Part shown: piece by piece, positions 14,239-63,826 of the stretch
How the letters are laid out: each line of letters opens with the position of its first letter
How positions within the stretch are numbered: the first letter of the stretch is position 1
Assembly (NCBI GenBank): GCA_030390025.1
Contig: CM059431.1
Location: forward strand, 100,690,001 to 100,754,000
Length of the DNA stretch: 64,000 bases
Direction: 5' to 3'
DNA from: Squalus acanthias
Taxonomy: Eukaryota
Translations under genes and position numbers: made by a program
Notes under the pieces: model-generated
The model's database searches: none
What the model was told of the DNA's origin: nothing
The model's input: only the letters and a program-made list of their open reading frames with translations

Positions 14239-14350
14239 TAGAAAACGCTGGAAAAACTCAGCAGGCCAGGCAGCATCCGTGGAGAGAGAAAGAGAGTTAA
14301 CGTTTCAGGTCGATGACCTTTCATCAGAACTGGGAAGAGCCGGAAATCAA
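14239..14350 (-). mobile_element. Penelope-like terminal-repeat fragment with hammerhead motif
   Basis: 14-bp TSD attaatcccgtcaa at 14225 and 14351; homologous to copies at 32471, 46688, 49835 and 63758. Confidence 0.8.
14295..14331 (-). ncRNA. Minimal type I hammerhead ribozyme motif
   Basis: AGUU-CUGAUGA-A-AGGUC(AUC)GACCU-GAAA-CG-UU-AACU: stem I, catalytic core, stem II, palindromic ACGU in place of helix III. Confidence 0.75.
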
Positions 14351-16524
14351 ATTAATCCCGTCAACCTCTGTCCTTTCTCCGTGAGGCAGCTATATATTAC
14401 ACTATTGTCACCTTGGGTAGACTTTATGTTGGGTTTACAATCCACCTACACTTTCTTATTTAGATGAACACAGAATTAATTCCACAATTGGAAACATAAA
14501 GCTTTTCCTGTTGATCTTCCAAGTCTCTAAACTTTTGGAGAGAGACAAAATAATTTAGTTCAAACCTTTGTGTGTCCCTGTTCTGCAAGATAATTCACCA
14601 CTCTCAAGTACATTTATTTTAATAGCTTTTTTCTCACGAAATGTCACTTTGTATAAGTTTTCTCAAAACTTCAATACAAGTTACAGTTTTCTGGAGTACT
14701 TCATCACAGATGAACACTGCGAACTAAACAAAATTAAATCACTTGGCAGGAACTTTAGCAATGTTATTAAGTGGATTCAATTGCTGCAAAAGAATTGCAA
14801 GCTTCAATGGTTTTCAGTCAGTTGCTAAATGTAAATCAGCCTTTACAGTATCTGCCCACCAGCGTAGGTTTTAATCATCTTCAACTACTCTAAGCATTGT
14901 GCTGTCCCTTTAACTGACAGTAGGGGGAGTCGACTGTCTACACTTACAACGAACTCGAGTATTTATGGGGTTCCTAAGACTCTCAGTCATTAAAGACAAA
15001 TAAATTAATGCGGAAAATTCTTCTCAGAGACATTAACAGTCACTTTCACGAGTTAGCAAATTTGGCTTTTTCCCCCCCACAGAACGGTAAGATGTTTCCC
15101 GCTTCCATTTTTTCCATCCTGGTGGAACATGAAAAGCTACGAGAAAAATAAGCTGAATACATTTAGCAAATTATTCGGAAATTACCCCCCCAAAATCCGT
15201 TTAAATGTTTGTGTAAGCATTACATTTTTTTTTGCTTACTCTCTGAGAAAGGGACATGAAAGAGAAGAGAGGTCCAATTTAATATCTGTCTGTTGCATCA
15301 ATTTTAAGTAAAAAAATTTTTTACAACACTACGATTCTAGTGTTTCTGTCGTAATTAACTGGGTTTTATATGTTTCAGAAGGAAATTATATTTTCTGGGA
15401 TTTGTTTTTTTATTCGGAAACCCTCCCCCCCCCCCCCCCACTTGAGCAGCAAAAAGTTGGAAGGGATCATGGAAGGGAGTAATGTCTGGCAACCACCAAG
15501 AGCTGTATGTGGCTGAAGCTACAGGGGTTGACTTATGAACATTAAAATGAAACCCAATAGTTTTTAAAGCTGCGCGCACAATACCCTTTGACGACTAGAT
15601 AACAGCTGATGGTAAATAGTAGTCTTTCACCAAACTATCTGGATAGCAAGGGAAAAGTGCACAGCTAGTTATGAATAGAAACAACAGTAAAAATCCTTTA
15701 TAAAAATATATATTGTATATATGAAGTAACAGCAAGCAAGCGAGAGTGGGGGTGGGGAAGTTGGCAGAAAATTTAATTTCCTTTCATTAGCTTGTCTGCT
15801 CCACAAATCAGTGCTTGTTAAGTTCAAAGCAAACCTGAAAGGAGTATCTGTTTTAGGTCCTTTTTTTTTGTTGGAAAAGCCGTGATTGTTAAATGGCATT
15901 TTTCCAAAGAATAATCATTTTCAGGTAAAACAAATAATTCGATTTTAAAAAGTTTAATGCCTTTGCTAAACTCTCCAGTTACCTCGGCTCCGCGGAGGGA
16001 AAACACCTTCCGTCATTTTAGCAGAAGAAACCAAAAAAAAAGGAATCAAAAGAGAGTAATTTAGGCATGTTAGTGGTTTCCACACATTGAGTTTCAAGTG
16101 CCTTTGTTCAACTCGATGACAGTTATGCGAGAATACTTCGCCTTAATAGCCACTCTGTCAGAAAGTGTTAAACCAGTCAAATGCAGACAATTAGAGCCTC
16201 TTGAACTCAATGCATGAGAGTAAAGGCTGATGGTGTTCCACCATTTATAGTTAAGTGGAAACACTTTGAATTGTCTTTGCAGTTGCAAATTGCACCTTTC
16301 ATTTACATTCTGCTTAAATAAGTAATGTTTCACTTGTTTTGCTGCAAAATCTCAACTCCCAAAAGGCAAGAAACTTGCTGATGTGCAGCCCAAGGTTTTA
16401 GAGATTCTTGTGAGATGAGATTACATTTTAGAATTAAACACACTTAAAGGGCACAACTTCTCTTTGGACAAGACATACCAATGCCTTAGCGTTGTACCAG
16501 GTTCGTTAGACTTTGCTACAGTAC

Positions 16525-16930
16525 CATAGAATTTCAGAGCACAGGACGAGGCCATTCGGCCCATCGTGCCTGTGCCGGCTCTTTGAAAGAGCTCTCCAAT
16601 TAGTCCCACTCCCCTGCTCTTTCCCCATAGCCCTACAAATTTCTCCTTTTCAAGTATACATCCAATTTCCTTTTGAAAGTTACTATTGAAGGTGCTTCCA
16701 CCTCCCTTTTCAGGTAGTGCGTTCAAGATCACAACAACTCGCTGCGTGAAAAAAACCTCCTCATCTCCCCTCTGGTTCTTTTGCCAATTATCTTAAATCT
16801 GTGTCCTCTGGTTACCGACCCTCCTGCCAACAGAAACAGTTTCTTCCTGCCTACTTTATCAAAACCCATCGTAATTTTGAACACCTCTATTAAATCTCCC
16901 CTTAACCTTCTCTGCTCTAAGGAGAACAAT
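16525..16930 (-). mobile_element. CR1 3' fragment
   Basis: LEQRRLRGDLIEVFK..TRGHRFK on minus. Confidence 0.85.
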
Positions 16931-17109
16931 ACCAATATACATGCGCTTACCCCAATTAATGGTCAAATTTCTGTCAATAAAATCGACGTTTAGAATTATG
17001 AATATTTTATCCAAGAATCTTGGTTAGAATATATTTTTGAATGTTAATTATTTACTATATATTTTCTGCATTTTCTCCAGTCAAATATTTTGCATATATG
17101 TGGAAAGAC

Positions 17110-17530
17110 GATTGAAGCGGAGATTGTTCTCCTTAGAGCAAAGAAGGTTAAGGGGAGATTTAATAGAGGTGTTCAAAATTATGTTAGGTTTTGAGAAGAG
17201 TAAATAAGGAGAAAATGTTTCCACTGGCGGGAGGGTCGGTAACCAGATGACAGGGATTTAAGATAATTGGCAAAAAAGCCAGGGGGTAAATGAGGAGAAA
17301 TACTTTTACGCAGTGAGTTGTTGTGATCTGGAATGCGCTGCCTGAAAGGGCGGTGGAAGCAGATTCAATAGTAACTTTCAAAAGGGAAGTGGATAAAATA
17401 CTTGAAAATTGAAAAATTCGCAGGGCAATGGAAAAAGAGCAGGGGAGTGGGACTAATTGGATAGCTCTTTCAAAAAGCCGGCACAGGCACGATGGGCTGA
17501 ATGGCCTCCTTCTGTGCTGTATCATTCTAT
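17110..17530 (+). mobile_element. CR1 3' fragment, inverted relative to 16525-16930
   Basis: Same subfamily and interval on plus; ends cattctat. Confidence 0.85.
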
Positions 17531-17618
17531 TTCTAAAATGCGTGTTTCAAATTGATAACTGAATGGCATGGACCTGTATCAATGCCAGGCTAATCCAACA
17601 AAACTCCAGCTTTCTCAC

Positions 17619-17750
17619 CTTGACCACTCCATCAAAGCCAGGGATGGTGTTGACTTTTGCCTTCTTGGCTATTAATTTGCTTTCAATCTTGTCTCCCATG
17701 GCCTGAAGAGCATGCGTGTCGGGCCCAATGAAGGTGACACCTTCAGCAGC
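17619..17750 (-). CDS. PCCA: PCCA exon (exon 7 equivalent), 132 bp, phase 0-0
   Basis: cag|[44 protein letters not shown]|gtgaga. Confidence 0.97.
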
Positions 17751-18469
17751 CTGCGGAGATAATTAAGCTGTTAGATTTACAATAGTAACATATTTGGCTT
17801 CACGACGCTTATATTTACAATACTTTAATTGGTAATGACAAAATCATAAAGATAATCACCATTAAAAGGCACCGTGCCTCAACCCCAAATGTTAATCTAC
17901 CTTTTCTATCGAACTACTAAACCAACTATATAACTTGAATCTTTTTCTGATTTCATTTTTATATTTTCAGCATTCGGCTTTTCTCTCTTAGTTCTGTTAA
18001 AAGTACTGCATTGTGCCCAGTTGTTATACAGATGAGAGCACTCCAGACTTCGCAATGCTGTTCAGTGTCAAATACAGTGAAAGACGGCAAGGAATTGGCT
18101 GGTGAAAAGTGCTCCAAATCCTGATAAACCAGCCTTGGTGTAAACATGCGGCCAAGTCCTCAGGGAAATCAATTGGCTGGAACAGGAACTGTCCGTGCAA
18201 TGGCATCATAGTATCATAAAACTGAAAATGCATACTGGGAGCGAGAACTCTATGTGCATTTCACAAGCAGTTAAAGGAATGAGAGTTATACGGAATGGTT
18301 GAGCGGACCCGAGATGCAACTGCAGTGATCTCTGAGCAATCAATGTCAGTCCCAATATAAAATCTGGCACACAATACTGCATACGCCAGGAAATGACGAA
18401 GACAAGATCTTCAGAAAATAGCTAAATATTACTTTTTTTTAATGCCTGGACGAATGCCTTTGCTGCTGA

Positions 18470-19530
18470 TTTATGTTAAACTTGTTCAGAACCTTGGTTA
18501 GGCCACACTTTAGAGTACAACAACAACAACTTCCATTTATATAGCACCTTTAACACCGTAAAAACGTCCCAAGGTGCTTCACAGGAGCGTTATCAGAAAA
18601 TAATTTGACACCGAGCCGCATAAGGAGATATTAGGATAGGTGACCAAAAGCTTGGTCAAAGAGGTAGGTTTTAACGAGAGTCTTAAAGGAGGAAAGAGAG
18701 GTAGAGAGGAAGAGAGGTTTAGGGAGGGAATTCCAGAGCTTAGGGCCTAGGCAGCTGAAGGCACGGCCACCAATGGTTGAGTGATCAAAATCGGGGAAGC
18801 AAAAGAGGCCAGAATTGGAGCGGTGCAGAGGTCTCGGAGGGTTGCAGGGATGGAGGCGGTTACAGAGATAGGGAGGGTCAAGGCTATGGAGGGATTTGAA
18901 AACAAGGATGAGAATTTTTAAATCGAGTGGTTGCCGCACTGGGAGCCAGTGTAGGTCAGCAAGCACAGGAGTGATAGGTGAGCAGGACTTGGCGCAGTTC
19001 TGGTCTCCATATTATAAAAAGAATATAGAGGCACTGGAAAAGGTGCAAAAAAGATTTACAAGAATGATACCAGAACTGAAAGGTTATACCTATCAGGTAA
19101 GATTGAACAGGCTGAGGCTCTGCTCTCTAGAGAAGAGAAGGCTGAGGGGCAATCTGATTGAGGTCTTTAAAGTTATGAAAGGGTTTGATAGGGTAGACGT
19201 AGAGAAGATGTTTCCACTTGTGGGGGAGACCAAAACTAGGGGCCATAAATAGTCACTAATAAATCTAATAGGGAATTCAGGAGAAACTTCTTTACCCAGA
19301 GAGTGGTGAGAATGTGGAACTCGCTACCACAGGGAGTAGTTGATACAACTAGCATAGATGCATTTAAGGGGAAGTTAGATAAACACGAGTGAGAAAGGAA
19401 TAGAAGGATATGCTGATAGGATGAGATGAAGTAAGGTGGGAGGAGGAACGTGTGGAGCATAAACACCGGCACGGACCAGTTGGGCCAAATGGCCTGTTTC
19501 TGTGCTGTACATTGTATGTAATTCTATGTG
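18470..19530 (+). mobile_element. CR1 fragment with nested minus-strand L2 (about 18517-18995)
   Basis: LVRPH...QFWSPYYKK split by an L2 with (caa)n tail. Confidence 0.82.
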
Positions 19531-19879
19531 ATGAGCAGCCCAGTTTATCTTTAGCAAGCTACTGGAAGATATGAGATACAGCCCAGTGCCTCAGTCTGAT
19601 CCCCTGTACAAAATACCACAGCCTCCACCTAGTGCTTCCACATAGAGCACACTTTAAATCAGGAACTGAACAGGATGGAAGATTGAACCTGGACCCTCCA
19701 ATTCTGGGCTCTGAACAACTATTTCACAACACATAAAAGGTTATGCTGATAGGTTTAGACAGGCTTAGATGAAGAGAGTTGGGAGGAGGTTTGTGTGGAG
19801 CATGGACCAGTTGGGCTGAATGGCCTGTTTCTGTGTCATTCTATGTAACAGTACCAGTAATCTGATCAACATGGTTTTA

Positions 19880-30159: not shown

Positions 30160-30592
30160 GAAAGACAGACTTGCATTTCTATAGCGCCTTTCATGACCAC
30201 CGGACGTCCCAAAGCGCTTTACAGTCAATTAAGTATTTTTTTTTTTAAAGTGCAGTCACTGTTGTAATGCAGAGAATGCAACAGCCAATTTGCACACAGT
30301 AAGCTCCCACAAACAGCAATGTGATAATGACCAGATCATCTGTTTTCGTGATGTTGATTGAGGGATAAATATTGGCCCCAGGACACCAGGGAGAACTCCC
30401 TTCTCTTCTTTGAAATAGTGCCATGGGATCTTTTACGTCCATCTGAGAGAGCAGACGACTCATCCAAAAGACGGCACCTCCGACAGTGCAGCACTCCCTC
30501 AGTACTGCCCCTCCGACAGTGCGGCGCTCCCTCAGTACTGCACTGGAGTGTCAGCCTAGATTTTTGTGCTCAAGTCTCTGGAGTGGGACTTG
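30160..30592 (-). mobile_element. Deu-SINE containing two copies of the 33-bp unit
   Basis: cgacagtgc.gc.ctccctcagtactgc repeated at 30481 and 30514. Confidence 0.85.
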
Positions 30593-30692
30593 AAGTAGCA
30601 TTTTTGTTTCTCCAACTGCGCTCCCAAACCCATGGAAACGCTGATTAGTGTTGCGGTACAGTTCCACAGACACCAGTAGCTTTCTGGTGCCT

Positions 30693-31145: not shown

Positions 31146-32470
31146 CCCAGGAGGCCGTTTTGCATATTCAAGAATAAGCAGTAAGCGGTAAAAAAAAAAA
31201 GCTATTCGACCACGGGGGCATCACAGCCAATTTAAATCTTATCCCCACCCAACATACGTCTTCTGGCAAAAAGATCCTGGACAGCAATCAGGGTGGGAAA
31301 TCTGCCTGAATTTTGCGTTCTCTAGTCCACAGACAGTGAAATCAATTGTAATATCCTTGCCGCTAATATCACACACATGATGCCTCTTTGCAGCTCTTAT
31401 CAGTTCCTCGGCATTCCTCAGCCTATCTTTATAGATCTCCCTATCCTGTTTTCTTTCCTGAACATTTTAAATAAATGTTGTATGCTTTCCCTTTCTCCCT
31501 AATGCCTTTCGCAACTTTCTTAGTAAGTCAAATCGGTTTTACTCTTTTATTCTGCCCTTGACTGGGGGAAAGAGAGATGAGGAGATTTTTTTTTATGTAG
31601 CGAGTTGTTATGATGTGGCATGCACTGCCTGAAGATTCAATAGTAACTTTCAAAAGGGAATTGGCTATGTACTTAAAAAGGAAAATTTTGCATGGCTATG
31701 GGGAAAGAGCAGGGTGGGGGAGCGGGGGGGAGTGGGACTAATTGGATAGCCCTTTCAAAGGGATGGCACAGGCACGATGGGCCAAATGGTCTCCTTTGCT
31801 GACGGTTCCAGGATTTAAAACAATTTTTTTTTAAAAATTGCCATTATTCTTCAAACTTCCTTTACATAGCATTGACTTGAGGCTTTATCCATTACTCCTG
31901 CTGGCACAGATCAGCCATGATCTCATTCAATGGCAGAACAGGCTCGAGGGGCTGAATGGCCTCCTCCTCTTCCTCTGTTCTCTGTCTCTGCACGAGTCTA
32001 TGACAAATTTCAGGGATAAATTCCTGTCGCATTGTAAAAATTATTCCTTTGAAACTATTTCACTCTCCTTTCATATCTTTTTCTTCAAGTAAAAGAGCGC
32101 TAGACATAATTAAGGGGAAGAGGGAGCAGTTTGTCAGCATGGACTAAGAGTTGGTGGAGGAGAAACTCCCCATGAGCAGGGCAGGAAGTCAAGGGGATAC
32201 AGGTTCGTTGTGAACTGGGGTGGGGGTGGTTGTACATGGGAGGATGCATTGTGACAGCTTTTTGGGAACTGATAGTTTGTCTACTGAAAACCCAAATTAC
32301 ACTTGGGTTTTCCTTTTTTCTAAAAAAAAAAATAAAAATCTATCAATTATGAACGATAAAGGGAGCAATTGTGACGATAGTGAATCAGCAGCCTGGTTTA
32401 CATCTCTCCCGATTTTCATATTCATTGACTTCAATGGAAATGACAACAGGCAAAGGTGTAAAAAGGGCCA

Positions 32471-32620
32471 AAATAACAACAGAAAGCGCTGGAAAAACTC
32501 AGCAGGCCAGGCAACATCTGTGGAGAGAGAAACAGAGTTAACGTTTCAGGTCGAAGACCCTGCGTCAGAACTGAGAAAAAAGCAGGAAATGAAACAGATG
32601 AAAAAGCAAGTTGGAGGCTG
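32471..32620 (-). mobile_element. Penelope-like fragment with mutated hammerhead (32536-32572)
   Basis: AGUU-CUGACGC-A-GGGUC(UUC)GACCU-GAAACGUU-AACU; core A9 changed to C; sits inside a palindromic repeat at about 32360-32675. Confidence 0.75.
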
Positions 32621-36470: not shown

Positions 36471-36472
36471 AA

Positions 36473-46100: not shown

Positions 46101-46687
46101 TATAGAAGTGAAAAGATATGTGTATTTCTATATCCAGTTTGCATTTTCATCAAATGTGGAGTTGGCTATATTCAGAGGAGGGGGCTGACATTTAGCAATA
46201 TTTACTCAATGGGAGTTTTTCTCATTGTGAAGCATTTAGGAACAGTTCCATTGCATGATGAGGTTTACACTTACCTAACCAGCAGTTTCCCAGTATTATT
46301 TCACCGGCTTGCTGCATCTATTAGACGGGTCTTATTTGAGAATTATGAAAAATGTCATTTAGATTCTTAATATCAATTAAGTCTGGGAGATATACGGGAA
46401 TACTCGGATGAGAAATTCCTACAAGCAAGAGCTGGATTCCTTCACGCGAGAGCTGGACCTGTTTGTGGCTGGGGCGGACATCACCTCTTACAGAAGGGAG
46501 GTACTGCAGGGAATTCAGGGCCAGAGTGATCTCCTGGACTAGTTTCAATCGGATGGGTCGGTAAGGCATTTCCCAGATTTTTTCCCCCAAAATAGCCTGG
46601 GTTTTTCATCTGGTTTTCTGCCTCTCCCATGAGAGCACATGGTTTCGGGTGGGGTGGAGAGTGTATATGTTGTGGGGTGGAGAGTGT

Positions 46688-46945
46688 CCCATTACCATCT
46701 CGTCTTGCCTTGAGCATCTCTTAATGTCTCTACTTACCATAGACCACCCCTTTTGTTCTCCCCCCAGCCTCCCCCTTGCTTTTTTATCTGTTTCATTTCC
46801 TGCTTTTTTCTCAGTTCTGACGAAGGGTTTCGACCTGAAACGTTAACTCTGTTTCTCTCTCCATGGATGTTGCCTGGCCTGCTGAGTTTTCCAGCATTTT
46901 CTGTTGTTGTTTCAATTTTCTAGCATCCACAGTATTTTGCTATCG
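46688..46945 (+). mobile_element. Penelope-like 3' end with hammerhead (46813-46848), inserted in a CR1-type 3'UTR repeat
   Basis: AGUU-CUGACGA-A-GGGU(UUCG)ACCU-GAAACGUU-AACU; ends gtattttgctatcg; 20-bp duplication tggagagtgtatatgttgtg at 46655 and 46946. Confidence 0.8.
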
Positions 46946-47239
46946 TGGAGAGTGTATATGTTGTGATACACAAGGTATCGCAATTGTGTAGGACAGGCTC
47001 GATGGACCGGTCCTTCATTGTTCATATGTAACCTGACCTTTCTGAGGTAACAGCACTTCTTTTAGTTTTGGAATCTGCCCTCTCTCACCACAAGAAAATA
47101 AAGATAGTGCAAATGGATATAGGCATATCCTACTTAACTCCACAACTATAACCACTCTTTTCCCCACACCCCCTCCAACCTTCCCCAGCAGACACCTTAA
47201 TACCGAGCCACACAGTCCAGGCTCGATCTCTCGCTGCAC

Positions 47240-48770: not shown

Positions 48771-49834
48771 AGATGGAAGAATGTCTTTTTTCTCCACAAT
48801 AGCTCACCTTTAGCTCTTACTGATACGACAAAGGTTCAGTTGTGCAGCATCGGTGGGACACTGCAGCTTTAAATGTATAACGGGACAAATAAGCCCTCGG
48901 AAACACTTCAAACTGACCACAGATCCATGTATCCAAAAAAATATTAGGCACATTAGTCTGTGTCTTATATGATGTCAATATTGGCATCCAAGAACTAAGG
49001 ATTTTCAGCCATGCTAAAGAGCAATACTTTATTTTGACCGATCTTCTCAAATCATAGACTGAGATGGGTCTTTGTCTCCCTGAGTGCCTCAAAAATGGCC
49101 ATTCTTCATGTACAAGCTTAATCAAAGGCCAAGCATCATGTACTTAATCATCAGGTGCCGGGCATCACAGAAGAGCCCGATTCTGTTTCACCCAATATCT
49201 ACACAGGCACACTTTCCGGCAGAGATCATAAGACAGCAATCAGAAGCTGCAACACTGACTGAGTTTCCTTCCCCTCGTTAGGCAATTATTCACGCCTACC
49301 GCCATTCTAGCAGGGATCAGCTACGTGGGTACAAACCAAGTACTGTACTGAACTTGGGATCTTCCTGTTCTGGCATCACTCGGTACCACAGCATCACCTG
49401 CCCCGCCATAAGGTAAATGGAAGAACTCAGTAATGGGGACTAAGAGGATGAAAACTATTTTTTTTTAAATTGCATTTTCTACCTGTCACGTCTCTAGGAT
49501 AGTAATAACTTGTTTCTAAGGGCCTGCTTTAGGCTGAAAATGCGACAAAAATAGGCCTTTAGAATATGTAACTGGGCCTACATATGTACCACACACATAG
49601 AGCAAAGTACTTACAAGTGCTGCAATTGCGTGCACATTTATTGAGAAAGAATCAGGGAAAAGCAAATCTACAGTATTTACTGTGTTTACATATAAGAATT
49701 AAGAGTATTCTTGCTGCATATATTTTAACCCCCTCACTAGCCAACCGCATTCGTACAAACACTTCCTCTGGCACTTAGTTCCGTTTGCTAGCAAGTGGCT
49801 GTTGACAACATTTTATCAAACTAAATTTAATTCA

Positions 49835-50161
49835 TAATAACAACAGAAAACGCTGGAAAAACTCAGCAGGCCAGGCAGCATCCGTGGAGAGAGAAACAGA
49901 GTTAACGTTTCAGGTCGAAGATCTTTCGTCAGAACTGGAAAAAGCAGGAAATGGAATAGATTTAAAGCAAGGATAAAGCTGGGAAAATATCCTTGCTTTA
50001 AATCTATTTCATTTCCTGCTTTTTCCAGTTCTGACGAAAGGTCTTCGACCTGAAACGTTAACTCTGTTTCTCTCTCCACAGATGCTGCCTGGCCTGCTGA
50101 GTTTTTCCAGCGTTTTCTGTTGTTATTTCGGATTTCCAGCATCCGCAGTATTTTGCTATCG
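49835..50161 (+). mobile_element. Penelope-like element with inverted terminal-repeat arms and two hammerhead motifs
   Basis: Arms 49836-49975 and 49988-50127 with about 3 mismatches; 13-bp TSD taaatttaattca at 49822 and 50162; same 3' end as the 46688 copy. Confidence 0.88.
50027..50063 (+). ncRNA. Minimal hammerhead ribozyme motif
   Basis: AGUU-CUGACGA-A-AGGUC(UUC)GACCU-GAAA-CG-UU-AACU. Confidence 0.72.
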
Positions 50162-50731
50162 TAAATTTAATTCAGGCCAGTTTAAACACATTAAGAGTCA
50201 CCTACTGCTCACATAAAATGGAAAACTGAAGCAGGTGACACATCTAGATTTGTAACACGGGGAAGGCTTTTGCAAAAAAAATACAAGTTATGCACTGTCG
50301 AAGAGAATTACTAACACAGATGAGTGTCGAGCTCGCTTAATCACTCAGTGGGGAAGAGGACTGCCTTGGTGCAGCACTGGCGTTGGTAACTCTGGTTGGA
50401 GGCAGTCCCGGAGGTTCCACCACATGAGCTTTTGCCTCCAACCCTCCCGCCAGTGGTCTCCCAACATGTCCACCCTTGCAGTGCCCCGCCCTCCCACGCC
50501 AATTGGAAACAAGACTCTTCATTACCTGACTGGATGATTCATGACCGTCAGTTCAACAGCCTTTCCCAGCCCCCCATCTCCAATACTTTCAGAACTAATA
50601 AATGAAAGCGTTCAAAGAATATTTTCACGGCCCCACGATTTTTTTTTTTCTCCTGGGTTACTCGCAGGAGTGTCCTGGAGCTCAATCTTTAATTCCTGGA
50701 GATTCCAGGGCAATCCAGAAGGGTCAGCAAC

Positions 50732-51199: not shown

Positions 51200-52190
51200 A
51201 GAGACTTGCATTTATACGGCGCCTTTCATGACCTCAGGCCGTCCCAAAGTGCTTCAAATCCAGTGAAGTGCTTTTGAAGTGTAGTCACTGTTTAATGTAG
51301 GTAAACACCAATTTGCCCATAGCAAGGTTCCCACAAACAGCAGTAAGATATATGACCAGGTAATCTGTTTAGTGGTGTTGGTTGGGTGATAAGTATCGGC
51401 CAGGACACCAGGGGTAGCTCCCCTGCTCTTCTTCGAATATTACGCGGAATCTTTTACGTCCACCTCAAAGAGCAGATGTGGCCACGGTTTAATGGCTCAT
51501 CTGAAAGACGGCCCCTCCAACAGTGCGGCGCTCCCTCAGTACCGCCCCTCCGACAGTGCAGCGCTCCCTCAGCACTGCCCCTCCGACAGTGCAGCACTCC
51601 CTCAGTACTGCCCCTCCGACAGTGCGGGGCTCCCTCAGTACTGCCCCTCCGACAGTGCGGGGCTCCCTCAGTACTGCCCCTCCGACAGTGCGGCGATCCC
51701 TCAGTACTGCCCCTCCGACAGTGCAGCACTCCCTCAGTACTGACCCTCCGACAGTGCGGCGCTCCCTCAGTACTGCCCCTCTGACAGCGCGGCGCTCCCT
51801 CAGTACAGCCCCACCGACAGTGCGGCGCTCCCTCAGTACTGCCCCTCTGACAGCGCGGCGCTCCCTCAGTACTGCCCCTCCGACAGCGCGGCGCTCCCTC
51901 AGTACAGCCCCACCGACAGTGCGGCGCTCCCTCAGTACTGCCCCTCTGACAGCGCGGCGCTCCCTCAGTACTGCCCCTCCGACAGCGCGGCGCTCCCTCA
52001 GTACTGCCCCTCTGACAGCGCGGCGCTCCCTCAGTACTGCCCCTCTGACAGCGCGGCGCTCCCTCAGTACTGCCCCTCTGACAGCGCGGCGCTCCCTCAG
52101 CCTGGATTGTGTGTTCAAGTCTCTCAAATGGGACTTGAACACACAACCTTCTGACGCGGAGGCGAGAGTGCGACCCATTGAGCCACAGCG
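51200..52190 (-). mobile_element. Deu-SINE expanded by an internal minisatellite
   Basis: SINE head at about 52190, tail at about 51200. Confidence 0.85.
51518..52100. repeat. 33-bp minisatellite, about 17.7 units
   Basis: Unit cgacagtgcggcgctccctcagtactgcccctc; starts at 51518, 51551 ... 52079. Confidence 0.95.
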
Positions 52191-52634
52191 GATAACAAAA
52201 AAAACAACAAAGCTGTGTGAAAACCGCATCATTATTTCACTTCAAAACACCCTTACTATCACTCAACTCTTTAATTCCAAAAAACAGAATGGATCACTAG
52301 AAATTAGTTTGGTAGCTAAGCCACATGGAGACAGCATGGTGGGGAAGCAATATGATAGCACCAAGGTGTAATGGAACATCAGTGGGATGTAGAACCTCTC
52401 ACCACGGTACTGGGTTCCCAGACTTGGGTGCAATGATGTGAGAAAGCCCCAAGCAAAGGTCAGACTAAAATTAATTAGCAGTTGCACCCACAGACTGCTC
52501 CTCTGCATTCCAAGCAACCTACTAAGAGCGTCATTGGAGATGAAGGCCTGGAAGCAGAGCACCCACAGGACAAATGCTTTTAATCAAAAACAAAGGCAGC
52601 CTCATGTCTAGGTTATTATATCCAGTAATTCTTA

Positions 52635-53025
52635 AAGAAAGACTTGCATTTCTATAGCGCCTTTCACGACCTCAGGACGTCCCAAAGCGATTTACAGCTG
52701 ATGAAGTGCTTTTGAAGTGTAGTCACTGTTGTAATGTAGGAAACGTGCCCGCCAATTTGTGCACAGCAAGCTCCCACACACAAAATGTGATAATGATCAG
52801 ATCATCGGTTGGTTGAGGGATAATGATTGGCCAGGACACCGGGGAGAACGCCCCTGCTCTTCTCTGAAATAGTGCCGTGGGATCTTTTAGCGTCCACCTG
52901 AGGGGGTAGCCGTTAACGTCTGGTTTAACGTCTCACCCAAAAGACGGCACCTCCGACAGTGCGGCACTCCCTCAGTACTGCACTGGTGTCAGCCTGGATT
53001 TTGTGCTCAAGTCCCTGGAGTGGGT
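52635..53025 (-). mobile_element. Deu-SINE
   Basis: Family similarity; single 33-bp unit. Confidence 0.85.
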
Positions 53026-55650: not shown

Positions 55651-55679
55651 ATTGGAACAGTGGTGTCAATACTCACTTT

Positions 55680-56010: not shown

Positions 56011-56099
56011 GCTGAGCAATCGAAAGCTATTCCATTTATTCAAAGAATGGTCATTAATAGTGAGATGCCTTAACAGAACAATAAATGTTCGGATTATGA

Positions 56100-58249: not shown

Positions 58250-58600
58250 AACAACAATAACAACGTATATTTATATAGCGCCGTGAACATAGTAAAACAT
58301 CCCAGGGCGCTTCACAAGACCGTAATCCGACAAAAATTGACACCGAGCCACATAAGGAGGTATTAGGACAGGTGACCAAAAGCTTGATCGAAGAGGTAGG
58401 TTTTAAGGAGTGTCTTAAAGGAGGAGAGGTAGAGAGGCAGAGAGGTTTAGAGAGGGAATTCCAGAGCTTAGGGCCTTGGCAGCTGAAGGCACGGCCGCCA
58501 ATGGTGGAGCGATGAAAAACCGTGATGGGCAAGAGGCCAGAATTGGAGGAGCGCAGATATCTCGGAGGGCTGTAGGGCCAGAGGCAGTTACAGAGGTTTG
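58250..58600 (-). mobile_element. L2 3' fragment
   Basis: TIGGRAFS..GPKLWNSL. Confidence 0.8.
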
Positions 58601-60016
58601 ACTTATACCTCCCACCGAGTTTCCGCCCCCTTCCTGACATTTAGCAGATGAGAGAACTCCTAAGTAAGCCAAGTACACGTCTAACATCCACCACGGCATT
58701 TATTCACACATGAAGAATGTGTATTTGAAGATCACCTGATGACGTAGTGGGTAAATACTCTCTCACCTGTGTTAAGTTAGCTCAGCTAGGGCCACATTAG
58801 ATGTGCCACAATTGGCCCCCAGCATCCTGGAGTCGGGAGTGAAAAATGAGCCGGAATTCTCACTCTTCATCACTATTCAGTGACCTACGTTGGAAAGTGT
58901 ACATGCATTGACATCAGGAGAGGTTGAAATCAGCTTCATTTGTGATGCAGCCCCACCAACCCCACCCCACCTCCCCACCACCCCCATAGCAAAATAGCCA
59001 GATAACACTACTGCCATGGCCACACATGAATGGCACTCTGGCATGAGGCACTTGAGACCGATAGTGACCATGGAACTTGGAGGAGAGGAGAAAAACTGGA
59101 TGAAAGTATGGCCACTTGGGCACGGGACTGAAGCATTGCTGGCACGCATGGCACACTATTCCATCAAAAGTCACTGCCTATGATAAGAGACAGAGAGAAA
59201 ATTGGGGGGATGAAAGAAATTTTAAAAAGGAATTTACTTTTAAGTACTGTAATGCATTTCAGTGAATCACAGTGAAGAACAAAGCTTACGGAAATTATCT
59301 ACAAATGGTGACTGGTTCATGATTGTAATCTACTGAAAGAAATTTTCTCGAACCAATATATCTCTCATTTTAAATCAATGTGTTTTATGACCAACAAACA
59401 ATTCAACTATCAGTTTCCTAAATCAATACAAATGAAGATCTTGCAGCAACTATAAAGTATTTGTCCACAAACATACAACACCATCAGTCTACAGACCTTA
59501 GTCTGTAGGATCAAGAAAAGAAATTGTATGGGACACCCTCCAGCTCAATAAAACATAGTTGATATAATCTGTACATGATGCACCCTCCAAAAACTATTAC
59601 TACATTGATGTAGTGACCTGGGTCCCACTACTTAGGTCAGAAAGCAATGTTTCTGTGTGGTCCACACCATGCTAACCCCACTATCTCACTGAATTCCCAC
59701 GCAGCCCACATTTGCTGGAGCCACAGATCCTACTCCCATGTATAATCAGTATCCAGCACAGAAAAGCCAAAATGCTCAATATCCAGATGGGTTTCAGTGA
59801 TCACAGACTGTCCCCTACCACGAGCAATTTAAACTAATGATCACCAATAGGGATAGGGAATACATGGACATGAAACTTGCCCAACATGAAGAGACAATTG
59901 ACAATGCATAATATCAGGTTCACAAAGCCACACGGAAATGCACTATCATGCTGCCCCAACTGAGCAACAGAATTTACGCTCACATTCACTAATCTCCAGG
60001 CAGTAAACTCTATCTT

Positions 60017-60530
60017 TTTTTAATTTAGTTTATGGGATGTGGGCGTCACTGGCAAGGCCAGCATTTATTGCCCAGGCCAGCATTTATTGCCCATCCCTCA
60101 TTGCCCTTGAGAAGGTGGTGGTGAGCCACCTTCTTGAACCACTGCAGTCCGTGTGGTGAAGGTACTCCCACAGTGCTGTTAGGGAGGGAGTTCCAGGATT
60201 TTGACCCAGCGACGATGAAGGATCGGCGATATACTTCTAAGTCAGGATGGTGTGTGACTTGGAGGGTAACTTGGAAGTGGTGGTGTTCCCATGCCCCTGC
60301 TGCCCTTGTCCTTTTAGGTGGAAGCGGTCGCGGGTTTGGGAGGTGCTGCCGAAGAAGCCTTGGCGAGTTGCTGCACTGCATCTTGTAGATGGTACACACT
60401 GCAGCCACGGTACGCCGGTGGTGGAGGGAGTGAATGTTTAAGGTGGTGGATGGGGTGCCAATCAAGCGGGCTGCTTTGACCTGGATGGTGTCGAGCTTCT
60501 TGAGTGTTGTTGGAGCTGCACTCATCCATC
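60017..60530 (-). mobile_element. Second LINE family 3' fragment
   Basis: WMSAAPTTLKKLDTIQ..WNSLPNS. Confidence 0.85.
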
Positions 60531-60789
60531 CACTATACTCACCTAAAAAGGCACTGAATGAAGGGGAGGCAATCACTCAAGGGGCAAGAAGGAAAGTCAG
60601 AAGATGAGTTACACTGGACTTCTCTCAGAGTCTAGATATTGATGCCAGAATACATTGGTTAACAATGTTAGCTGAGGATGAGTTACACTGGACTTCAGTT
60701 CTAGGCATTAATTCTAGGACACATCAGAACAGGCTTGGGAGCAGGTTAGCTGTCTACCCTGGTGACCAGAGAATAGTGCAAGGAATTCA

Positions 60790-61940
60790 ATTTACAATTC
60801 TAAAGGAGGTGCATGAACAGAGAGACCTGTGGGTATTTGTGCACAAATCGTTGATGGTGGCAGGGCAGGTGGAAAGCGGTTAAAAAAGCAATACGGGATC
60901 CTGGGCTTCATAAATAGATGCATAGAGTACAAAAGCAAGGAAGTTATGATAAAAGAAAAAGAAAGACTTGCATTTATGCAGCGCCTTTCACGATCACTGG
61001 ACGTCTCAAAGCGCTTTACAGCCAATGAAGTATTTTTTTTGGGACTGTAGTCACTGTTGTAATGTGGGAAACGCTGCAGCAAATTTGCGCACAGCAAGCT
61101 CCCACAAACAACAATGTGATAATGACCGTTTTTTTGTTATGTTGATTGAGGGATAAATATTGGCCAGGACACCGGGGATAACTCCCCCTGCTCTTCTTTG
61201 ATATAGTGCCATGGGATCTTTTACGTCCACCTGAGAGAGCAGACGGGGCCTCGGTTTAACGTCTCATCCGAAAGACGGCACCTCCAACTGCACTGGAGTG
61301 TCTGAAACCCACAACCTTCTAACTCAGAGGCGAGTGTGCTACCCACTGAGCCACTGAAGAACCTTTATAAGACACTGGTCCAGCCTCAACTGGAGCATTG
61401 TGTCCAATTCTGGGCACCGCACTTTAGGAAGGATGTGAAGGCCGTAGAGAGGGTGCAGAAAAGATTTACAAGAATGGTTCCAGGGATGAGGGACTTCAGT
61501 TACATGGACAGACTAGAGAAGCTGGGGTTGCTCTCCTTAGAGCAGAGAAGATTGAGAGGAGATTTGATAGAGGTGTTCAAAATCATGAGGGGTCCAGACA
61601 GAGTAGATAGAGAAAAACTGTTCCCAATGGTGGAAGGGTCTAAAACCAGAGGACACAGATTTAAGGTGAATGGCAAAAGAACCAAAGGTGACATGAGGAA
61701 AAACCTTTTTACGCATGAGTGATCAGGATCTGGAATGCACTGCCTGAAAGGGTGGTGGAGGCAGATTCAATCGTGGCTTTCAAAAGGGAGTTGGATAAGT
61801 ACCTGAAGGAAAAAAATTTGCAGGGTTATGGGTAAAGGGCGGGGGAGTGGGACTAGCTGAAGTGATCTTGCAGAGTGCCGGTACGGGCTCAACGGGCCAA
61901 ATGGCCTCCTTCTGTGCTGTAACCATTCTATGATTCTATG
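60790..61940 (+). mobile_element. CR1 interrupted by a minus-strand Deu-SINE (about 60950-61355)
   Basis: IEYKSKEVM...NLYKTLVQPQLEHCVQFW joins across the SINE. Confidence 0.85.
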
Positions 61941-61954
61941 AGACGAGCCATTGT

Positions 61955-63630
61955 ATTTACAGTAGAAGAAAAGTGCTGGAAATCCCAAGGAGATTAATAT
62001 TGAATCGGGGATAGGGACTCAATAAAATTAACGTAAGTAAAATAACAGTAATGAAGAAAATAATGGCACTAAAGAGTGACAAATCCCCAGGACCAGATGG
62101 TTTCCATCCCAGGGTTTTAAAGGAAGTAGGTGAGCACATTGCAGATGTTCTAAGTATATAATCTTCCAAGTTCTCTAGATTCAGGAACCGTTCCTTTAAA
62201 TTGAAAAATTGTGCACGTCACTCCGCTATTTAAGAATGGCGAGAGAGGGAAACCAGGGAATTATAGACCAGTTAGCCTAACATCTGTTGTGGGGAAATTG
62301 CTAGAGTCTATAATTAAGGATAGGGTGACTGAACACCTCGAAAATTTTCAGTTGATCAGAGAGAGCCGGCATGGATTTGTGAAAGGTAGGTCATGCCTGA
62401 CAAACTTGATTGAATTTTTTGAAGAGGTGACTAAAGTAGTGAACAGGGGAAGAATGTCTATGGATGTTATTTATATGGACTTCCAGAAGGCATCTGATAA
62501 AGTCCCACATAAGAGACTGTTATCTAAGGTAGAAGCCCACGGAATTGAGGGCAAATTATTGACCTGGTTAGGAAATTAGCTGAATGGCAGGAGACAGACA
62601 ATAGGGATAATGGGTAGGTCCTCAAATTGGCAGGATGTGACTAGTGGTGTCCCGCAGGGATCTGTGTTGGGGCCTCAACTATTCACAATATTTATTAACG
62701 ACTTAGATGATGGCATAGAAAGTCATATATCCAAATTTGCCGATGACACAAAGATAGGTGGCATTGTAGGCAGTGTAGATGAAAGCATAAAAATACAAAG
62801 GGATATTGATAGATTAAGTGAATGGGCAAAACTGTGGCAAATGGATTTCAATGTAAGCAAATATGAGGTCATCCACTTTGGACCTAAAAAGGACTTTCTA
62901 AATGGTGAAAAGCTCAAAACAGTGGAGGTCCAAAGAGACTTGGGGCTCCAGTTACATAAAAAATCATGAACAGGTACATAAAATGTCATGAACAGGTACA
63001 GAAAATAATCAACAAGGCTAACAGAATGCTAGCCTTTATATCTAGAGGACTAGAATACAAGGGGGTAGAAGTTATGCTGCAGCTATACAAAGCCCTGGTT
63101 AGACCACACCTGGAGTACTGTGAGCAGTTCTGGGCACCACACTTTAGGAAGGATATAGTGGCCTTGGAGGGAGTGCAGCGTAGGTATACCAGAATAATAC
63201 CCAGACTCCAAGGGTTAAGTTACAAGGAGAGATTACACAAATTAGGGTTGTATTCCCTAGAATTTAGAAGGTTAAGGGGTGATTTGATCGAAGTTTTCAA
63301 GATATTAAGGGGAACAGATAGGGTAGATAGAGAGAAACTATTTCCACTGGTTGGGGATTCTAGGACTAGGGGGCATAGTCTAAAAATTAGAGCCAGACCT
63401 TTCAGGAGTGAAATTAGGAAACACTTCTACACACAAAGGGTGGTAGAAGTTTGGAATTCTCTTCCACAAACGGCAATTGATGCTAGATCAATTGTTAATT
63501 TTAAATCTGAGATTGATAGCTTTTTGTATGAAGGGGTATGGGCCAAAGGTCACAGATCAGCCATGATTTCATTGAATGGCAGAACAGGCTTGAGGGGCTG
63601 AATGGCCAACTCCTGTTCCTATGTATGTTC
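61955..63630 (+). mobile_element. 5'-truncated CR1 with disrupted RT
   Basis: NYRPVSLTS, MDFQKASD, GVPQGSVLGP, KFADD in three frames; CR1 tail. Confidence 0.92.
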
Positions 63631-63757
63631 AATTTATACCACAGAGATTTATCGTCCTCTTGATTCTTTAAAATTTAAATATATGTGTTTTCTCTTAGCA
63701 AACAGCTCTTTTACAGTGGAAGACTGAATTCCATTAGATCATATTCAACGATCATTG

Positions 63758-63826
63758 GACGAAGGGTTCGACCCGAAACGTTGACTCTGTTTCTCTCTCC
63801 TCGATGCTGCCTGACCTGCTGAGTGT
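63758..63826 (+). mobile_element. Truncated Penelope-like hammerhead fragment
   Basis: gacga-a-gggt(tcg)accc-gaaacgtt-gact; 5' part of the core missing. Confidence 0.65.

What the first reader, a model, noticed from the sequence alone, without database searches (positions are those of the whole stretch)
14239..63826. Dispersed short Penelope-like element family carrying a minimal hammerhead ribozyme
Seen: six related motifs at 14295-14331(-), 32536-32572(-), 46813-46848(+), 49900-49936(-), 50027-50063(+) and 63758-63786(+). Consensus AGUU-CUGAYGA-A-[stem II]-GAAA-CG-UU-AACU. The stem II closing pair varies A-U, G.U, G-C and the loops vary (AUC, UUC, UUCG, UCG) while pairing is mostly kept, which is the pattern expected of structural constraint. 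Three insertions have 13-20 bp duplications and two share the 3' end gtattttgctatcg. Established: Penelope-like retroelements carry minimal type I hammerheads whose helix III is reduced to a palindrome and which are thought to cleave as dimers. Inference: these are recently mobile, non-coding, ribozyme-bearing retroelements. The predicted site is GUU, usually a slow triplet.
Basis: partly seen in the sequence, partly recalled or inferred. Interest (0 to 1): 0.8.

Follow-up and report, generated by a model that had tools for sequence, protein, structure and literature searches.

The report
Penelope-element tail fragments with minimal hammerheads
The six motifs are real minimal hammerhead-ribozyme sequences, but they sit in broken-off tail ends of a very abundant, recently active Penelope-like jumping gene of a shark-like genome, an arrangement already described in other vertebrates.

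Summary
All six motifs are at the stated coordinates. Three (c1, c3, c5) fit a strict minimal-hammerhead descriptor, against 0 hits in 100 shuffles. Three insertions have 13, 14 and 20-21 bp target duplications.

These are not a separate short non-coding family. They are 5'-truncated, sometimes inverted, 3'-terminal fragments of an autonomous Penelope-like element (PLE) of about 3.1 kb. Its single frame carries a reverse transcriptase (RT) followed by a GIY-YIG endonuclease (EN), with a Neptune-type CX4CX2C linker.

The known PLE hallmarks are present:
- partial tandems
- head-to-head inverted arms inside a single target duplication
- two 3' ends about 34 nt apart (the "tail")

The family is young and very large:
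- copies are 99-100% identical
- 4,992 exact copies of the main hammerhead variant
- 10,195 exact copies of a 42-mer just downstream of it

The hammerhead matches the min-HHR class of Cervera and de la Pena (2014). Stem pairing is kept across subfamilies (A-U, G.U, G-C) and in a second, unrelated family with 12,930 exact copies.

I found no evidence of cleavage in vivo. 5' ends do not pile up at the predicted cut site, and the active dimer fold is predicted to be disfavoured.

This scan had already noted the same class next to this window and in another shark genome. Verdict: a new member of a known kind, of low interest.

The parts
14239..14350 (-). Copy c1: 112-nt 5'-truncated tail fragment ending at the tail-less 3' end. 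Intact min-HHR at 14295-14331 (CUGAUGA, A10.1-U11.1, loop AUC). 14-bp target duplication at 14225-14238 and 14351-14364.
32468..32610 (-). Copy c2: older fragment with no target duplication found. The hammerhead at 32536-32572 has core change A9 to C (CUGACGC).
46685..46945 (+). Copy c3: 261-nt fragment of an older subfamily (B) ending in gtattttgctatcg. Intact min-HHR at 46813-46848 (G10.1.U11.1, 4-bp stem II, loop UUCG). 20-21-bp target duplication at 46654-46674 and 46945-46965.
49836..49987 (-). Copy c4: inverted, 5'-truncated arm ending at the tail-less 3' end. The hammerhead at 49900-49936 has a broken stem II pair (G to A). It forms a head-to-head pair with c5.
   Evidence: (I22: 147-nt arms, 96% complementary)
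49988..50161 (+). Copy c5: 174-nt direct arm ending in gtattttgctatcg. Intact min-HHR at 50027-50063 (subfamily A, A10.1-U11.1, loop UUC). A single 13-bp target duplication (49822-49834 and 50162-50174) encloses c4 and c5 together.
63758..63827 (+). Copy c6: 70-nt fragment of a third subfamily (C), 5'-truncated inside the hammerhead core. It is 100% identical over all 70 nt to 37 of the 44 other matches listed. Full copies of this subfamily carry G10.1-C11.1 and G1.1.U2.1.

Best explanation
What it is. The six motifs lie in dead 3'-terminal fragments of one autonomous Penelope-like element (PLE) family. The genome is 3.7 Gb and shark-like.

The full unit is about 3.1 kb. It has one frame encoding reverse transcriptase followed by a GIY-YIG endonuclease. 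The linker is of the Neptune type (CX4CX2C). After the stop codon comes a 3' UTR of about 400 nt. The last 135 nt of that UTR form a conserved module: the 37-nt minimal hammerhead plus 98 nt of tail.

How the fragments arose (inferred from known PLE biology). Copies are made by target-primed reverse transcription that starts inside the tail, at one of two sites about 34 nt apart. Synthesis usually stops early, so insertions are 5'-truncated. An inverted second arm is often added. The result is bounded by a 13-21 bp target duplication.

What the hammerhead does (inferred). In full copies a truncated upstream copy supplies a second hammerhead, about 170 nt before the start codon. The hammerhead has no helix III of its own, only the palindrome ACGU. 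It could therefore cut only when two copies pair, for example in a transcript that crosses a tandem, probably with help from the element's protein. It would cut after GUU.

The isolated fragments in this window have no promoter or ORF of their own. They are not expected to do anything, apart from forming a long hairpin in any host transcript that crosses the inverted pair.

Shown: the identity, anatomy, age and abundance of the element, and the conserved pairing of the motif. Inferred: reverse-transcription priming in the tail, and dimeric, protein-assisted cleavage.
For: Shared 3' end and variable length. 28 of 28 other loci fetched with the 174-nt copy share its 3' end. Their lengths range from 178 to at least 898 nt.

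Link to a coding element.
- An 880-nt copy (L010) runs into a frame with the GIY-YIG signature ..VYCIRCSRCGLLYIGETKRRLGDRFKEH.. and has an 11-bp flanking duplication.
- A search of the genome with that 108-aa piece gave 56,030 first-look candidates. The 150 that were scored were all 94-100% identical, with open frames up to 1004 aa.
- Two long frames that were fetched (1004 and 815 aa) both hit RVT_1 (E 3e-5 and 2e-5) and then GIY-YIG (E 2e-3 and 5e-4), in that order.
- The linker CTRRRCNTC fits the CX2-5CxxC motif that marks Neptune and Nematis (Craig 2021 passages).
- 1125 homologues had E <= 1e-10. The listed ones carry precomputed PF00078 and in part PF01541. One is a Chiloscyllium punctatum protein, 71% identical.

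PLE hallmarks.
- Partial tandem in L043: 4300-5535 matches 1094-2327 at 98.9%, and the hammerhead module is present at both ends of the full frame.
- The tail-to-5' junction is bridged by contigs in 3 of 4 public runs laid.
- Head-to-head inverted arms occur in the window and in 5 of 28 other loci.
- There are two 3' ends. Of 11 endonuclease-anchored copies, 7 end about 34 nt short, 3 end at gctatcg and 1 is cut earlier. Loose ends appear at both places.

Hammerhead.
- The descriptor gives 81 hits in 305,732 nt of window plus loci. It gives 0 in 60 shuffles.
- Exact genome counts, each with a reversed-pattern control of 0: 4,992 for variant A, 183 for variant C and 12,930 for an unrelated second family.
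- On 8 representative rows, 98.6% of 69 cells pair. 7 of 9 pairs change on both sides. 0 of 500 shuffles reach the covariation score. Versions with one strand slid pair in only 4-44% of cells.
- Between subfamilies A and C all 5 differences in the motif fall in stems or loop, and none in CUGACGA, GAAA or UU.

Agreement with the published class (Cervera and de la Pena 2014, parts 1-2 read): short helix I, an unpaired base after A9, a palindromic 15.2-16.2, motifs in flanking repeats, and pairs on opposite strands.
Against: Identification of the ORF.
- Both Pfam hits are below the curated cut-offs (24.1 against 29.6 bits, and 18.8-20.8 against 22.6 bits).
- None of the source names shown for the 120 listed homologues is 'Penelope'.
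- No RT phylogeny was made, so clade placement rests on the linker motif alone.

Identification of the hammerhead.
- No Rfam hammerhead model matches, even at E <= 10 on short stretches.
- The main variant has A10.1-U11.1 where the published class has a highly conserved G-C.

Predicted folding. Nearest-neighbour energies favour an inactive fold in which core UGACG pairs with CGUUA. For variant A, two such monomers total -18.2 kcal/mol, against -9.7 for the double-hammerhead dimer. Monomer z-scores are unremarkable, from -1.4 to +0.65.

No footprint of cleavage. 5' ends at the predicted cut site number 36 pattern hits, against 10,195 exact copies of a 42-mer starting at the same base. Control positions gave 89 and 169 raw hits. 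After removing recurrent variants the three positions are within about 2-3 fold of one another.

Conservation is not specific to the ribozyme. The 98-nt tail is as conserved (85-90%) as the hammerhead (86-95%), while the 150 nt upstream are 56-63% identical.

Bias. Most of the covariation comes from the second family, which was found with a descriptor that demands pairing.
Confidence: 0.88

Rival explanations
1. The motif is kept mainly as part of a 135-nt 3' recognition and priming module for the element's reverse transcriptase. Ribozyme cleavage is negligible or dispensable, so the hammerhead is a passenger or a structural element.
For: - The hammerhead and the 98-nt tail are conserved as one block.
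- The predicted active dimer is disfavoured.
- The most successful variant has A10.1-U11.1 and a GUU site.
- There is no clear excess of 5' ends at the cut site.
- 73 of 89 hits at position -4 fall in prefix classes whose fetched representatives join an unrelated repeat to the tail from CGUU onward, without the catalytic half.
- Frangieh 2024 reports that catalytic mutants do not affect insertion in vitro, and that no reads end at the site (passages).
- Craig 2021 notes that Naiads thrive without hammerheads (passages).
Against: - The core is invariant between subfamilies, while stems change in compensating ways.
- A second family with an unrelated tail keeps the same architecture.
- The literature shows low but real cleavage for this class, and protein-assisted cleavage in one Poseidon element.
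Confidence: 0.3
2. One reading: a separate family of short, non-coding, ribozyme-bearing retroelements (retrozyme-like) that is mobilised in trans.
For: - All six window copies are short (70-261 nt) and non-coding.
- Non-LTR retrozymes derived from PLE terminal repeats are reported in vertebrates, including one chondrichthyan (Li 2026 preprint, abstract and passages).
Against: - 5' ends differ from copy to copy, and longer copies continue into the endonuclease ORF.
- There is no head-to-tail array of the short unit in the window. The six copies are dispersed or inverted.
- The same tail ends full-length frames.
Confidence: 0.06
3. The hammerhead-like motif is a chance resemblance inside a repeat.
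For: - There is no Rfam hit.
- Helix I is short (4 bp).
- The monomer fold is not unusually stable.
Against: - 0 descriptor hits in 100 shuffles of the window and in 60 shuffles of 305 kb.
- The same architecture occurs in an unrelated family.
- Compensating changes are seen.
- Its position in a PLE terminal repeat is as published.
Confidence: 0.02

Closest known systems
Minimal hammerhead ribozymes (min-HHR) in the terminal repeats of metazoan Penelope-like elements (Cervera and de la Pena 2014, PMC4209133; parts 1-2 of the text read)
   Same: - Type I motif with no helix III, only a 2-nt palindrome at 15.2-16.2.
- Helix I of 4 bp.
- An unpaired base between A9 and 10.1.
- Sits in the element's flanking repeat.
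- Mostly found as solitary motifs in truncated copies.
- Pairs on opposite strands 100-700 bp apart are described there, as here.
   Different: - The main variants here have A-U or G.U at 10.1-11.1 instead of the 'highly conserved' G-C.
- Helix II is 4-5 bp, against 7-8 bp in the Schistosoma families.
- Cartilaginous fishes are not named in that text (0 hits for shark, Callorhinchus, chondrichthy or elasmobranch).
- Exact copies of just three variants total 18,105. That paper gives about 4,000 for coelacanth and about 9,000 for Xenopus.
Neptune-clade EN+ Penelope-like elements (Arkhipova 2006, recalled; Craig et al. 2021, PMC8557442, passages read)
   Same: - A single ORF with RT followed by a C-terminal GIY-YIG EN.
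- A CX2-5CxxC linker.
- Pseudo-LTRs formed by partial tandems.
- Inverted 5'-truncated copies.
- A 30-40 bp tail.
- A hammerhead in the pLTR.
   Different: - Clade membership was not tested by phylogeny.
- No microsatellite target bias is seen in the three target duplications of the window.
Poseidon element PAc of Anolis carolinensis (Frangieh et al. 2024, PMC11167929, passages read)
   Same: - Reverse transcription starts at two nearby internal sites, giving a genomic 'tail' signature.
- The hammerhead lies at the pLTR-ORF junction.
- Cleavage is not needed for insertion in vitro.
- No RNA-seq reads end at the cut site.
   Different: - In PAc the ORF starts inside the hammerhead. Here the first in-frame ATG lies about 40 nt after the tail end, roughly 170 nt after the motif.
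- Nothing was tested biochemically here.
Non-LTR retrozymes (Cervera and de la Pena 2020, search listing only; Li et al. 2026 preprint, abstract and passages read)
   Same: Short, non-coding, hammerhead-bearing sequences related to PLE terminal repeats.
   Different: - Retrozymes are head-to-tail tandem arrays with canonical type I hammerheads, and they give circular RNAs.
- The window copies are dispersed single or inverted fragments with variable 5' ends.

Membership tests
Penelope-like elements (EN+) | A single ORF with reverse transcriptase followed by a C-terminal GIY-YIG endonuclease | tested here: met
   Two long frames (1004 and 815 aa) hit RVT_1 and then GIY-YIG. Both hits are below Pfam's curated cut-offs. 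Homologues carry precomputed PF00078 and in part PF01541.
Penelope-like elements (EN+) | Pseudo-LTRs formed by partial tandem copies | tested here: met
   In L043, 4300-5535 matches 1094-2327 at 98.9%, and the tail module is present on both sides of the full frame. Contigs bridge the junction in 3 of 4 runs.
Penelope-like elements (EN+) | An inverted 5'-truncated copy adjacent to the insertion | tested here: met
   Window pair 49836-49987 / 49988-50161 lies inside one 13-bp duplication. Head-to-head partners occur in 5 of 28 other loci.
Penelope-like elements (EN+) | A 30-40 bp tail extension, that is, two alternative 3' ends | tested here: met
   Of 11 EN-anchored copies, 7 end about 34 nt before gctatcg and 3 end at it. 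In the window c1, c2 and c4 are tail-less, and c3 and c5 are tailed.
Penelope-like elements (EN+) | An RT that groups with PLE and telomerase RTs in a phylogeny | not tested
   No tree was built.
Neptune clade | A CX2-5CxxC zinc-finger-like linker between RT and EN | tested here: met
   CTRRRCNTC lies upstream of the GIY-YIG motif. The criterion is taken from Craig 2021 passages.
min-HHR of metazoan PLEs | Core CUGANGA ... GAAA ... UH flanked by helices I and II | tested here: met
   3 of 6 window motifs fit. Variant A has 4,992 exact genome copies.
min-HHR of metazoan PLEs | No helix III; palindromic 15.2-16.2 | tested here: met
   CG in this family and GC in the second family.
min-HHR of metazoan PLEs | An unpaired nucleotide between A9 and 10.1 | tested here: met
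   An A at alignment column 12 in 8 of 8 rows.
min-HHR of metazoan PLEs | A highly conserved G10.1-C11.1 pair | tested here: not met
   A-U in c1, c4 and c5; G.U in c2 and c3. G-C occurs only in subfamily C and in the second family. The paper calls this pair highly conserved, not obligatory.
min-HHR of metazoan PLEs | Self-cleavage as a dimer | not testable with these tools
   Only energy models were available. The double-hammerhead dimer scores -9.7 kcal/mol, against -18.2 for two inactive monomers of variant A.
Rfam hammerhead families (Hammerhead_1, _3, _II, HH9, HH10; names recalled) | A covariance-model score at the gathering threshold | tested here: not met
   0 matches at gathering score in the window. 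No hammerhead family appears at E <= 10 in 49800-50200 or in 14200-14400.
Non-LTR retrozymes | Head-to-tail tandem arrays of a short hammerhead unit | tested here: not met
   The six copies are dispersed or inverted, and none lies head to tail.

The most novel reading that the evidence does not exclude
The element's reverse transcriptase may need the 98-nt tail rather than the ribozyme. An unrelated, hairpin-rich repeat of at least 330 nt is joined at one fixed point to the same tail. That point is CGUU, directly after the GAAA box, so the catalytic half of the hammerhead is missing. 73 of 89 hits at that position fall in prefix classes of this kind. If this composite is mobilised as a unit, it would be a SINE-like passenger of a Penelope-like element that lacks the hammerhead core. 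It would be natural evidence that the hammerhead is dispensable for mobility.
Probability: 0.2. Interest if true: 0.5.

Novelty: new member of a known kind. Interest (0 to 1): 0.2.

Why it matters
The finding adds a well-resolved cartilaginous-fish example to a class known since 2014, and it documents the family's scale. There are at least 18,105 exact minimal-hammerhead motifs from three sequence variants in one genome, and the copies are near-identical, so the element was active very recently.

It does not answer the open question about these ribozymes, namely whether they cut in vivo and what that is for. The genomic test I could run was to look for 5' ends of insertions at the cut site. 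It gave no clear signal, which agrees with the 2024 in vitro work.

The practical value is for annotation. These motifs should be labelled as PLE tail fragments, not as independent ribozyme genes or as a new retroelement class.

Tried and rejected
1. Rfam. The gathering scan of the window gave 0 hits. E-value scans of two short stretches gave no hammerhead family. The miRNA-like hits in 49800-50200 are produced by the inverted pair.

2. My first motif pattern had the wrong spacing and found nothing.

3. RNA evidence. All 24 runs offered were kept as contigs only, and 23 had their kind merely guessed. I laid X1, X5, X8 and X11 on L043:900-4080.
- X1, X5 and X8 cover the whole element, with depth rising steeply towards the 3' end. 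That is what genomic copy number would give, so they may well be DNA.
- X11, the only run recorded as RNA, holds 3 small contigs at depth about 2.
- Contigs cannot show RNA ends. No statement on expression or cleavage can be drawn.

4. A DNA search of the genome with the tail alone found nothing, because its words are masked as too common. I used exact patterns instead (onward).

5. Test for 5' ends at the cut site. The pattern was four upstream bases all unlike the family, followed by an anchor.
- 36 hits at the cut site, 89 at -4 and 169 at +5.
- Of 20 of the 36 that I fetched, 6 are simple 5' ends, 9 are inverted-arm junctions and 5 are internal indel or mutation variants.
- At -4, 20 were fetched, one or two per prefix class. 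By class, the 89 split into 73 chimeras with another repeat, 12 inverted junctions and 4 simple ends.
- At +5, most hits are a 2-nt deletion variant. Only about 8 of the 100 listed rows look different, and none of these was fetched.
- Conclusion: no clear spike. The classification is partly by eye and by extrapolation.

6. Downstream tail hairpin (GAUGCUG/CAGCAUC). Only one-sided changes were seen, and the z-score was -0.64. It is not supported as a conserved structure.

7. A script meant to tabulate copy lengths against L043 was unreliable, because that copy has a local rearrangement next to its hammerhead.

8. The unrelated repeat joined to the tail has no tRNA and no Rfam match at E <= 0.1.

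9. I did not determine the host gene context of the window.

Full report
**Observation**

A 22-mer just downstream of the motif occurs six times in the window with up to 3 mismatches, and never in 100 shuffles.

I wrote a strict descriptor for a minimal type I hammerhead: 4-bp helix I, CUGANGA, an optional bulged base, helix II of 4-8 bp with a 3-8 nt loop, GAAA, a 2-nt Watson-Crick palindrome, U, then a non-G base. It recovers three of the six motifs (14295-14331 minus strand, 46813-46848 plus, 50027-50063 plus). It finds nothing in 100 Markov-1 shuffles of the window.

The other three are damaged copies:

| Motif | Damage |
|---|---|
| 32536-32572 | A9 changed to C |
| 49900-49936 | G-to-A change that breaks a helix II pair |
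| 63758-63786 | begins inside the core |

The three target-site duplications are real, at 14, 20-21 and 13 bp. The 13-bp one encloses the inverted pair 49836-49987 / 49988-50161 as a single insertion (read; inverted repeat I22).

**What the copies are**

The window lies in a 3.7-Gb assembly. A search of that genome with the 174-nt copy returned 41 matches from 653 first-look candidates, nearly all 99% identical over the whole query.

I compared the 28 other loci with each other.
- All share the same 3' end.
- Their lengths differ: 178, about 235, 295-330, 400-670 and at least 898 nt.
- This is the pattern of 5' truncation, not of a short element with fixed ends.

The 880-nt copy in L010 continues upstream into a frame with an unmistakable GIY-YIG signature (..VYCIRCSRCGLLYIGETKRRLGDRFKEH..). 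It is flanked by an 11-bp duplication.

Searching the genome with that 108-aa piece gave 56,030 first-look candidates. The 150 that were scored were all 94-100% identical. Surrounding open frames reached 1004 aa.

I fetched two of the long ones as examples.
- Both frames (1004 and 815 aa, stop to stop) hit RVT_1 and then GIY-YIG.
- Both hits are below Pfam's curated cut-offs.
- The order RT then GIY-YIG in one frame is, to my knowledge, peculiar to Penelope-like elements (PLEs).

A protein search found 1125 relatives at E <= 1e-10. The listed ones carry precomputed PF00078, and some also PF01541. One is a Chiloscyllium punctatum protein 71% identical. Many marine-invertebrate proteins are 45-57% identical. 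None of the source names shown is 'Penelope'.

The linker CTRRRCNTC fits the CX2-5CxxC motif that Craig et al. 2021 give as the mark of the Neptune and Nematis clades (passages). I did not build a tree.

**Anatomy of the full unit**

In L043 a truncated upstream copy (4300-5535) matches the 3' part of the full copy (1094-2327) at 98.9%. The hammerhead module stands on both sides of the long frame. This is the partial-tandem, pseudo-LTR arrangement described for PLEs.

From tail end to tail end the unit is 3,135 nt (unit length printed). The first in-frame ATG lies about 40 nt after the upstream tail end, roughly 170 nt after the upstream hammerhead.

Contigs in 3 of the 4 public runs laid bridge the same tail-to-5' junction.

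Head-to-head inverted arms like the window's pair occur in 5 of 28 other loci (L007, L014, L016, L019, L024).

There are two 3' ends.
- Among 11 copies chosen only for containing the endonuclease, 7 end about 34 nt before gctatcg, 3 end at it, and 1 is cut earlier.
- In the window c1, c2 and c4 have the short end, and c3 and c5 the long one.
- This matches the 30-40 bp 'tail' of Craig 2021 and the two internal initiation sites of Frangieh 2024 (passages).

**The hammerhead**

The motif reads AGUU-CUGAYGA-A-[helix II]-GAAA-CG-UU-AACU. Its features match the min-HHR class of Cervera and de la Pena 2014 (parts 1-2 of the text read):
- helix I of 4 bp
- an unpaired A after A9
- no helix III, only the palindrome ACGU

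That paper also describes solitary motifs in truncated elements, and pairs on opposite strands.

No Rfam hammerhead model matches, even at E <= 10. This is expected for a motif without helix III.

Three subfamilies of this element differ in the 10.1-11.1 pair:

| Subfamily | 10.1-11.1 pair | Age and abundance |
|---|---|---|
| A | A-U | 4,992 exact genome copies; copies 99% alike |
| B | G.U | copies 91-95% alike to c3 |
| C | G-C, plus G1.1.U2.1 | 183 exact copies; 37 of the 44 other matches listed are 100% identical to c6 over 70 nt |

The change from G-C to A-U is carried by whole lineages, not by decayed single copies.

A second family, unrelated in its flanks and absent from the window, has the same architecture with every helix I pair changed: UCAC-CUGAYGA-A-GGAGC-AGC-GCUCC-GAAA-GC-UU-GUGA. 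It has 12,930 exact copies.

On eight representative rows:
- 98.6% of 69 cells pair.
- 7 of 9 pairs change on both sides.
- 0 of 500 shuffles reach the covariation score.
- Versions with one strand slid pair in only 4-44% of cells.

Two cautions apply. The second family was found with a descriptor that demands pairing, although that descriptor gives 0 hits in 60 shuffles of 305 kb. Within the first family only one pair changes on both sides.

**Is the core specially conserved?**

Between subfamilies:
- the 150 nt upstream of the motif are 56-63% identical
- the motif itself is 86-95% identical
- the 98-nt tail is 85-90% identical

All five A-versus-C differences in the motif lie in stems or loop. 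The core is conserved, but so is the whole 135-nt 3' module. Conservation alone does not single out the ribozyme.

**Does it cut?**

I could not test this directly.

Energy models argue against easy self-cleavage.
- As monomers the family-1 motifs prefer a fold in which core UGACG pairs with CGUUA.
- For variant A two such monomers total -18.2 kcal/mol, against -9.7 for the double-hammerhead dimer.

As a genomic test I counted insertions whose 5' end lies exactly at the predicted cut.
- Exact pattern counts over the whole genome gave 10,195 copies of a 42-mer starting at A1.1.
- Only 36 of a shorter anchor were preceded by four bases all unlike the family.
- Of 20 fetched, 6 are simple 5' ends, 9 are junctions with an inverted arm and 5 are internal variants.
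- Control positions gave 89 hits at -4 and 169 at +5. Most of these are recurrent variants: a chimera at -4 and a 2-nt deletion at +5.
- About 4-16 genuine ends remain at -4. At +5 only about 8 of the 100 listed rows look different, and none was checked by fetching.
- There is no clear spike at the cut site, at most a 2-3 fold excess resting on partly manual classification.

This agrees with Frangieh 2024. There the hammerhead needed the element's protein to cut, catalytic mutants still inserted, and no RNA-seq reads ended at the site (passages).

The sequencing runs offered were contigs only, and their kind was mostly guessed, so they say nothing about RNA ends.

**Mechanism**

The most likely account has four steps.
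1. Transcripts that cross a partial tandem carry two hammerheads.
2. These can pair through ACGU and cut after GUU, slowly and probably with protein help.
3. Reverse transcription starts inside the tail, downstream of the 3' hammerhead, at one of two sites.
4. Synthesis usually aborts, and sometimes a second, inverted arm is made.

Steps 1, 3 and 4 fit the anatomy shown here. Step 2 is inferred from the literature.

A serious rival, which I put at about 0.3, is that the motif is kept as part of the RT's 3' recognition module and that cleavage does not matter.

**Comparison with what is known, and novelty**

This is the min-HHR / PLE association of 2014, in a Neptune-like element of a cartilaginous fish.

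The 2014 text does not mention sharks. A 2026 preprint reports hammerhead-bearing PLE derivatives in one chondrichthyan. My two literature searches found no paper describing this family.

Earlier notes of this scan reported the same class 7.6 kb before this window, and in another shark genome. I confirmed their 'two families' statement independently.

The points of difference are A-U or G.U at 10.1-11.1 in the main lineages, and the very large copy number. I rate it a new member of a known kind, of low interest.

**Side observation**

At position -4, 73 of 89 hits fall in prefix classes whose fetched representatives join an unrelated, hairpin-rich repeat of at least 330 nt to the tail. The join is at CGUU, so the catalytic half of the hammerhead is absent. 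That repeat has no tRNA and no Rfam match.

If this composite moves as a unit, it would show that the tail alone is enough for mobilisation. I did not establish its 5' end or any target duplications.

Noticed in passing
L101-L126 (genome loci; not in the window): An unrelated, hairpin-rich repeat (at least 330 nt shared between L122 and L124 at 77%) is joined at one fixed point (...aaaatccagcc|CGTTAACTCTG...) to the PLE tail, without the catalytic half of the hammerhead. By prefix class, 73 of 89 pattern hits at that position are of this kind. No tRNA and no Rfam match.
   Followed up: partly
L021:878-914(-) and 1020-1056(+), L061:9-45, L073:2895-2931; genome-wide count: A second min-HHR family with unrelated flanks (UCAC-CUGAYGA-A-GGAGC-AGC-GCUCC-GAAA-GC-UU-GUGA) has 12,930 exact copies. 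Among the first 100 listed places, 6 pairs lie head to head with only 2-9 nt between the two motifs, which suggests a preferred 5' end at the edge of the hammerhead. It is absent from the window.
   Followed up: partly
L094, L097 (and a third place with the same prefix): Snap-back-like junctions ...GGAGAGAGA|AACTCTGTT|TCTCTCTCC... in which the direct arm starts exactly at the predicted cleavage site. Seven further hits (TCAG|AACT) join an inverted arm through the 4-nt helix I sequence, which is its own reverse complement partner.
   Followed up: partly
window 50032-50060 and equivalents: As a monomer the family-1 motif is predicted to pair core UGACG with CGUUA around helix II. This is an inactive fold that hides both the core and the cleavage site.
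   Followed up: yes
window 51376-52199, with related units at 30459-30541 and 52932-53014: A 33-bp tandem array (about 17-19 units, 60-92% alike) of a C-rich unit (CTCCCTCAGTACTGCCCCTCCGACAGTGCGGCG-like). It is unrelated to the finding.
   Followed up: no
L043:1086-1125 (minus strand): The downstream copy of the full-length example has a local duplication next to its hammerhead (..ctcctgatgaaagttctgatgaaagg..). This breaks alignments there.
   Followed up: no
genome-wide: A frequent variant of the tail lacks 2 nt just after the cleavage site (GTTAACTGTTTC instead of GTTAACTCTGTTTC). It makes up most of the 169 hits of the +5 control pattern.
   Followed up: no
window, many places (families D3-D20): The window is dense with other dispersed repeat families of 70-300 nt, 60-94% alike. 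None was examined.
   Followed up: no
P0001 relatives: Apart from one shark protein (71% identical), the named relatives of the RT-EN region are from marine invertebrates (Littorina, Nucella, Diadema, Oculina, Biomphalaria) at 49-53% identity over 86-100% of the query.
   Followed up: no
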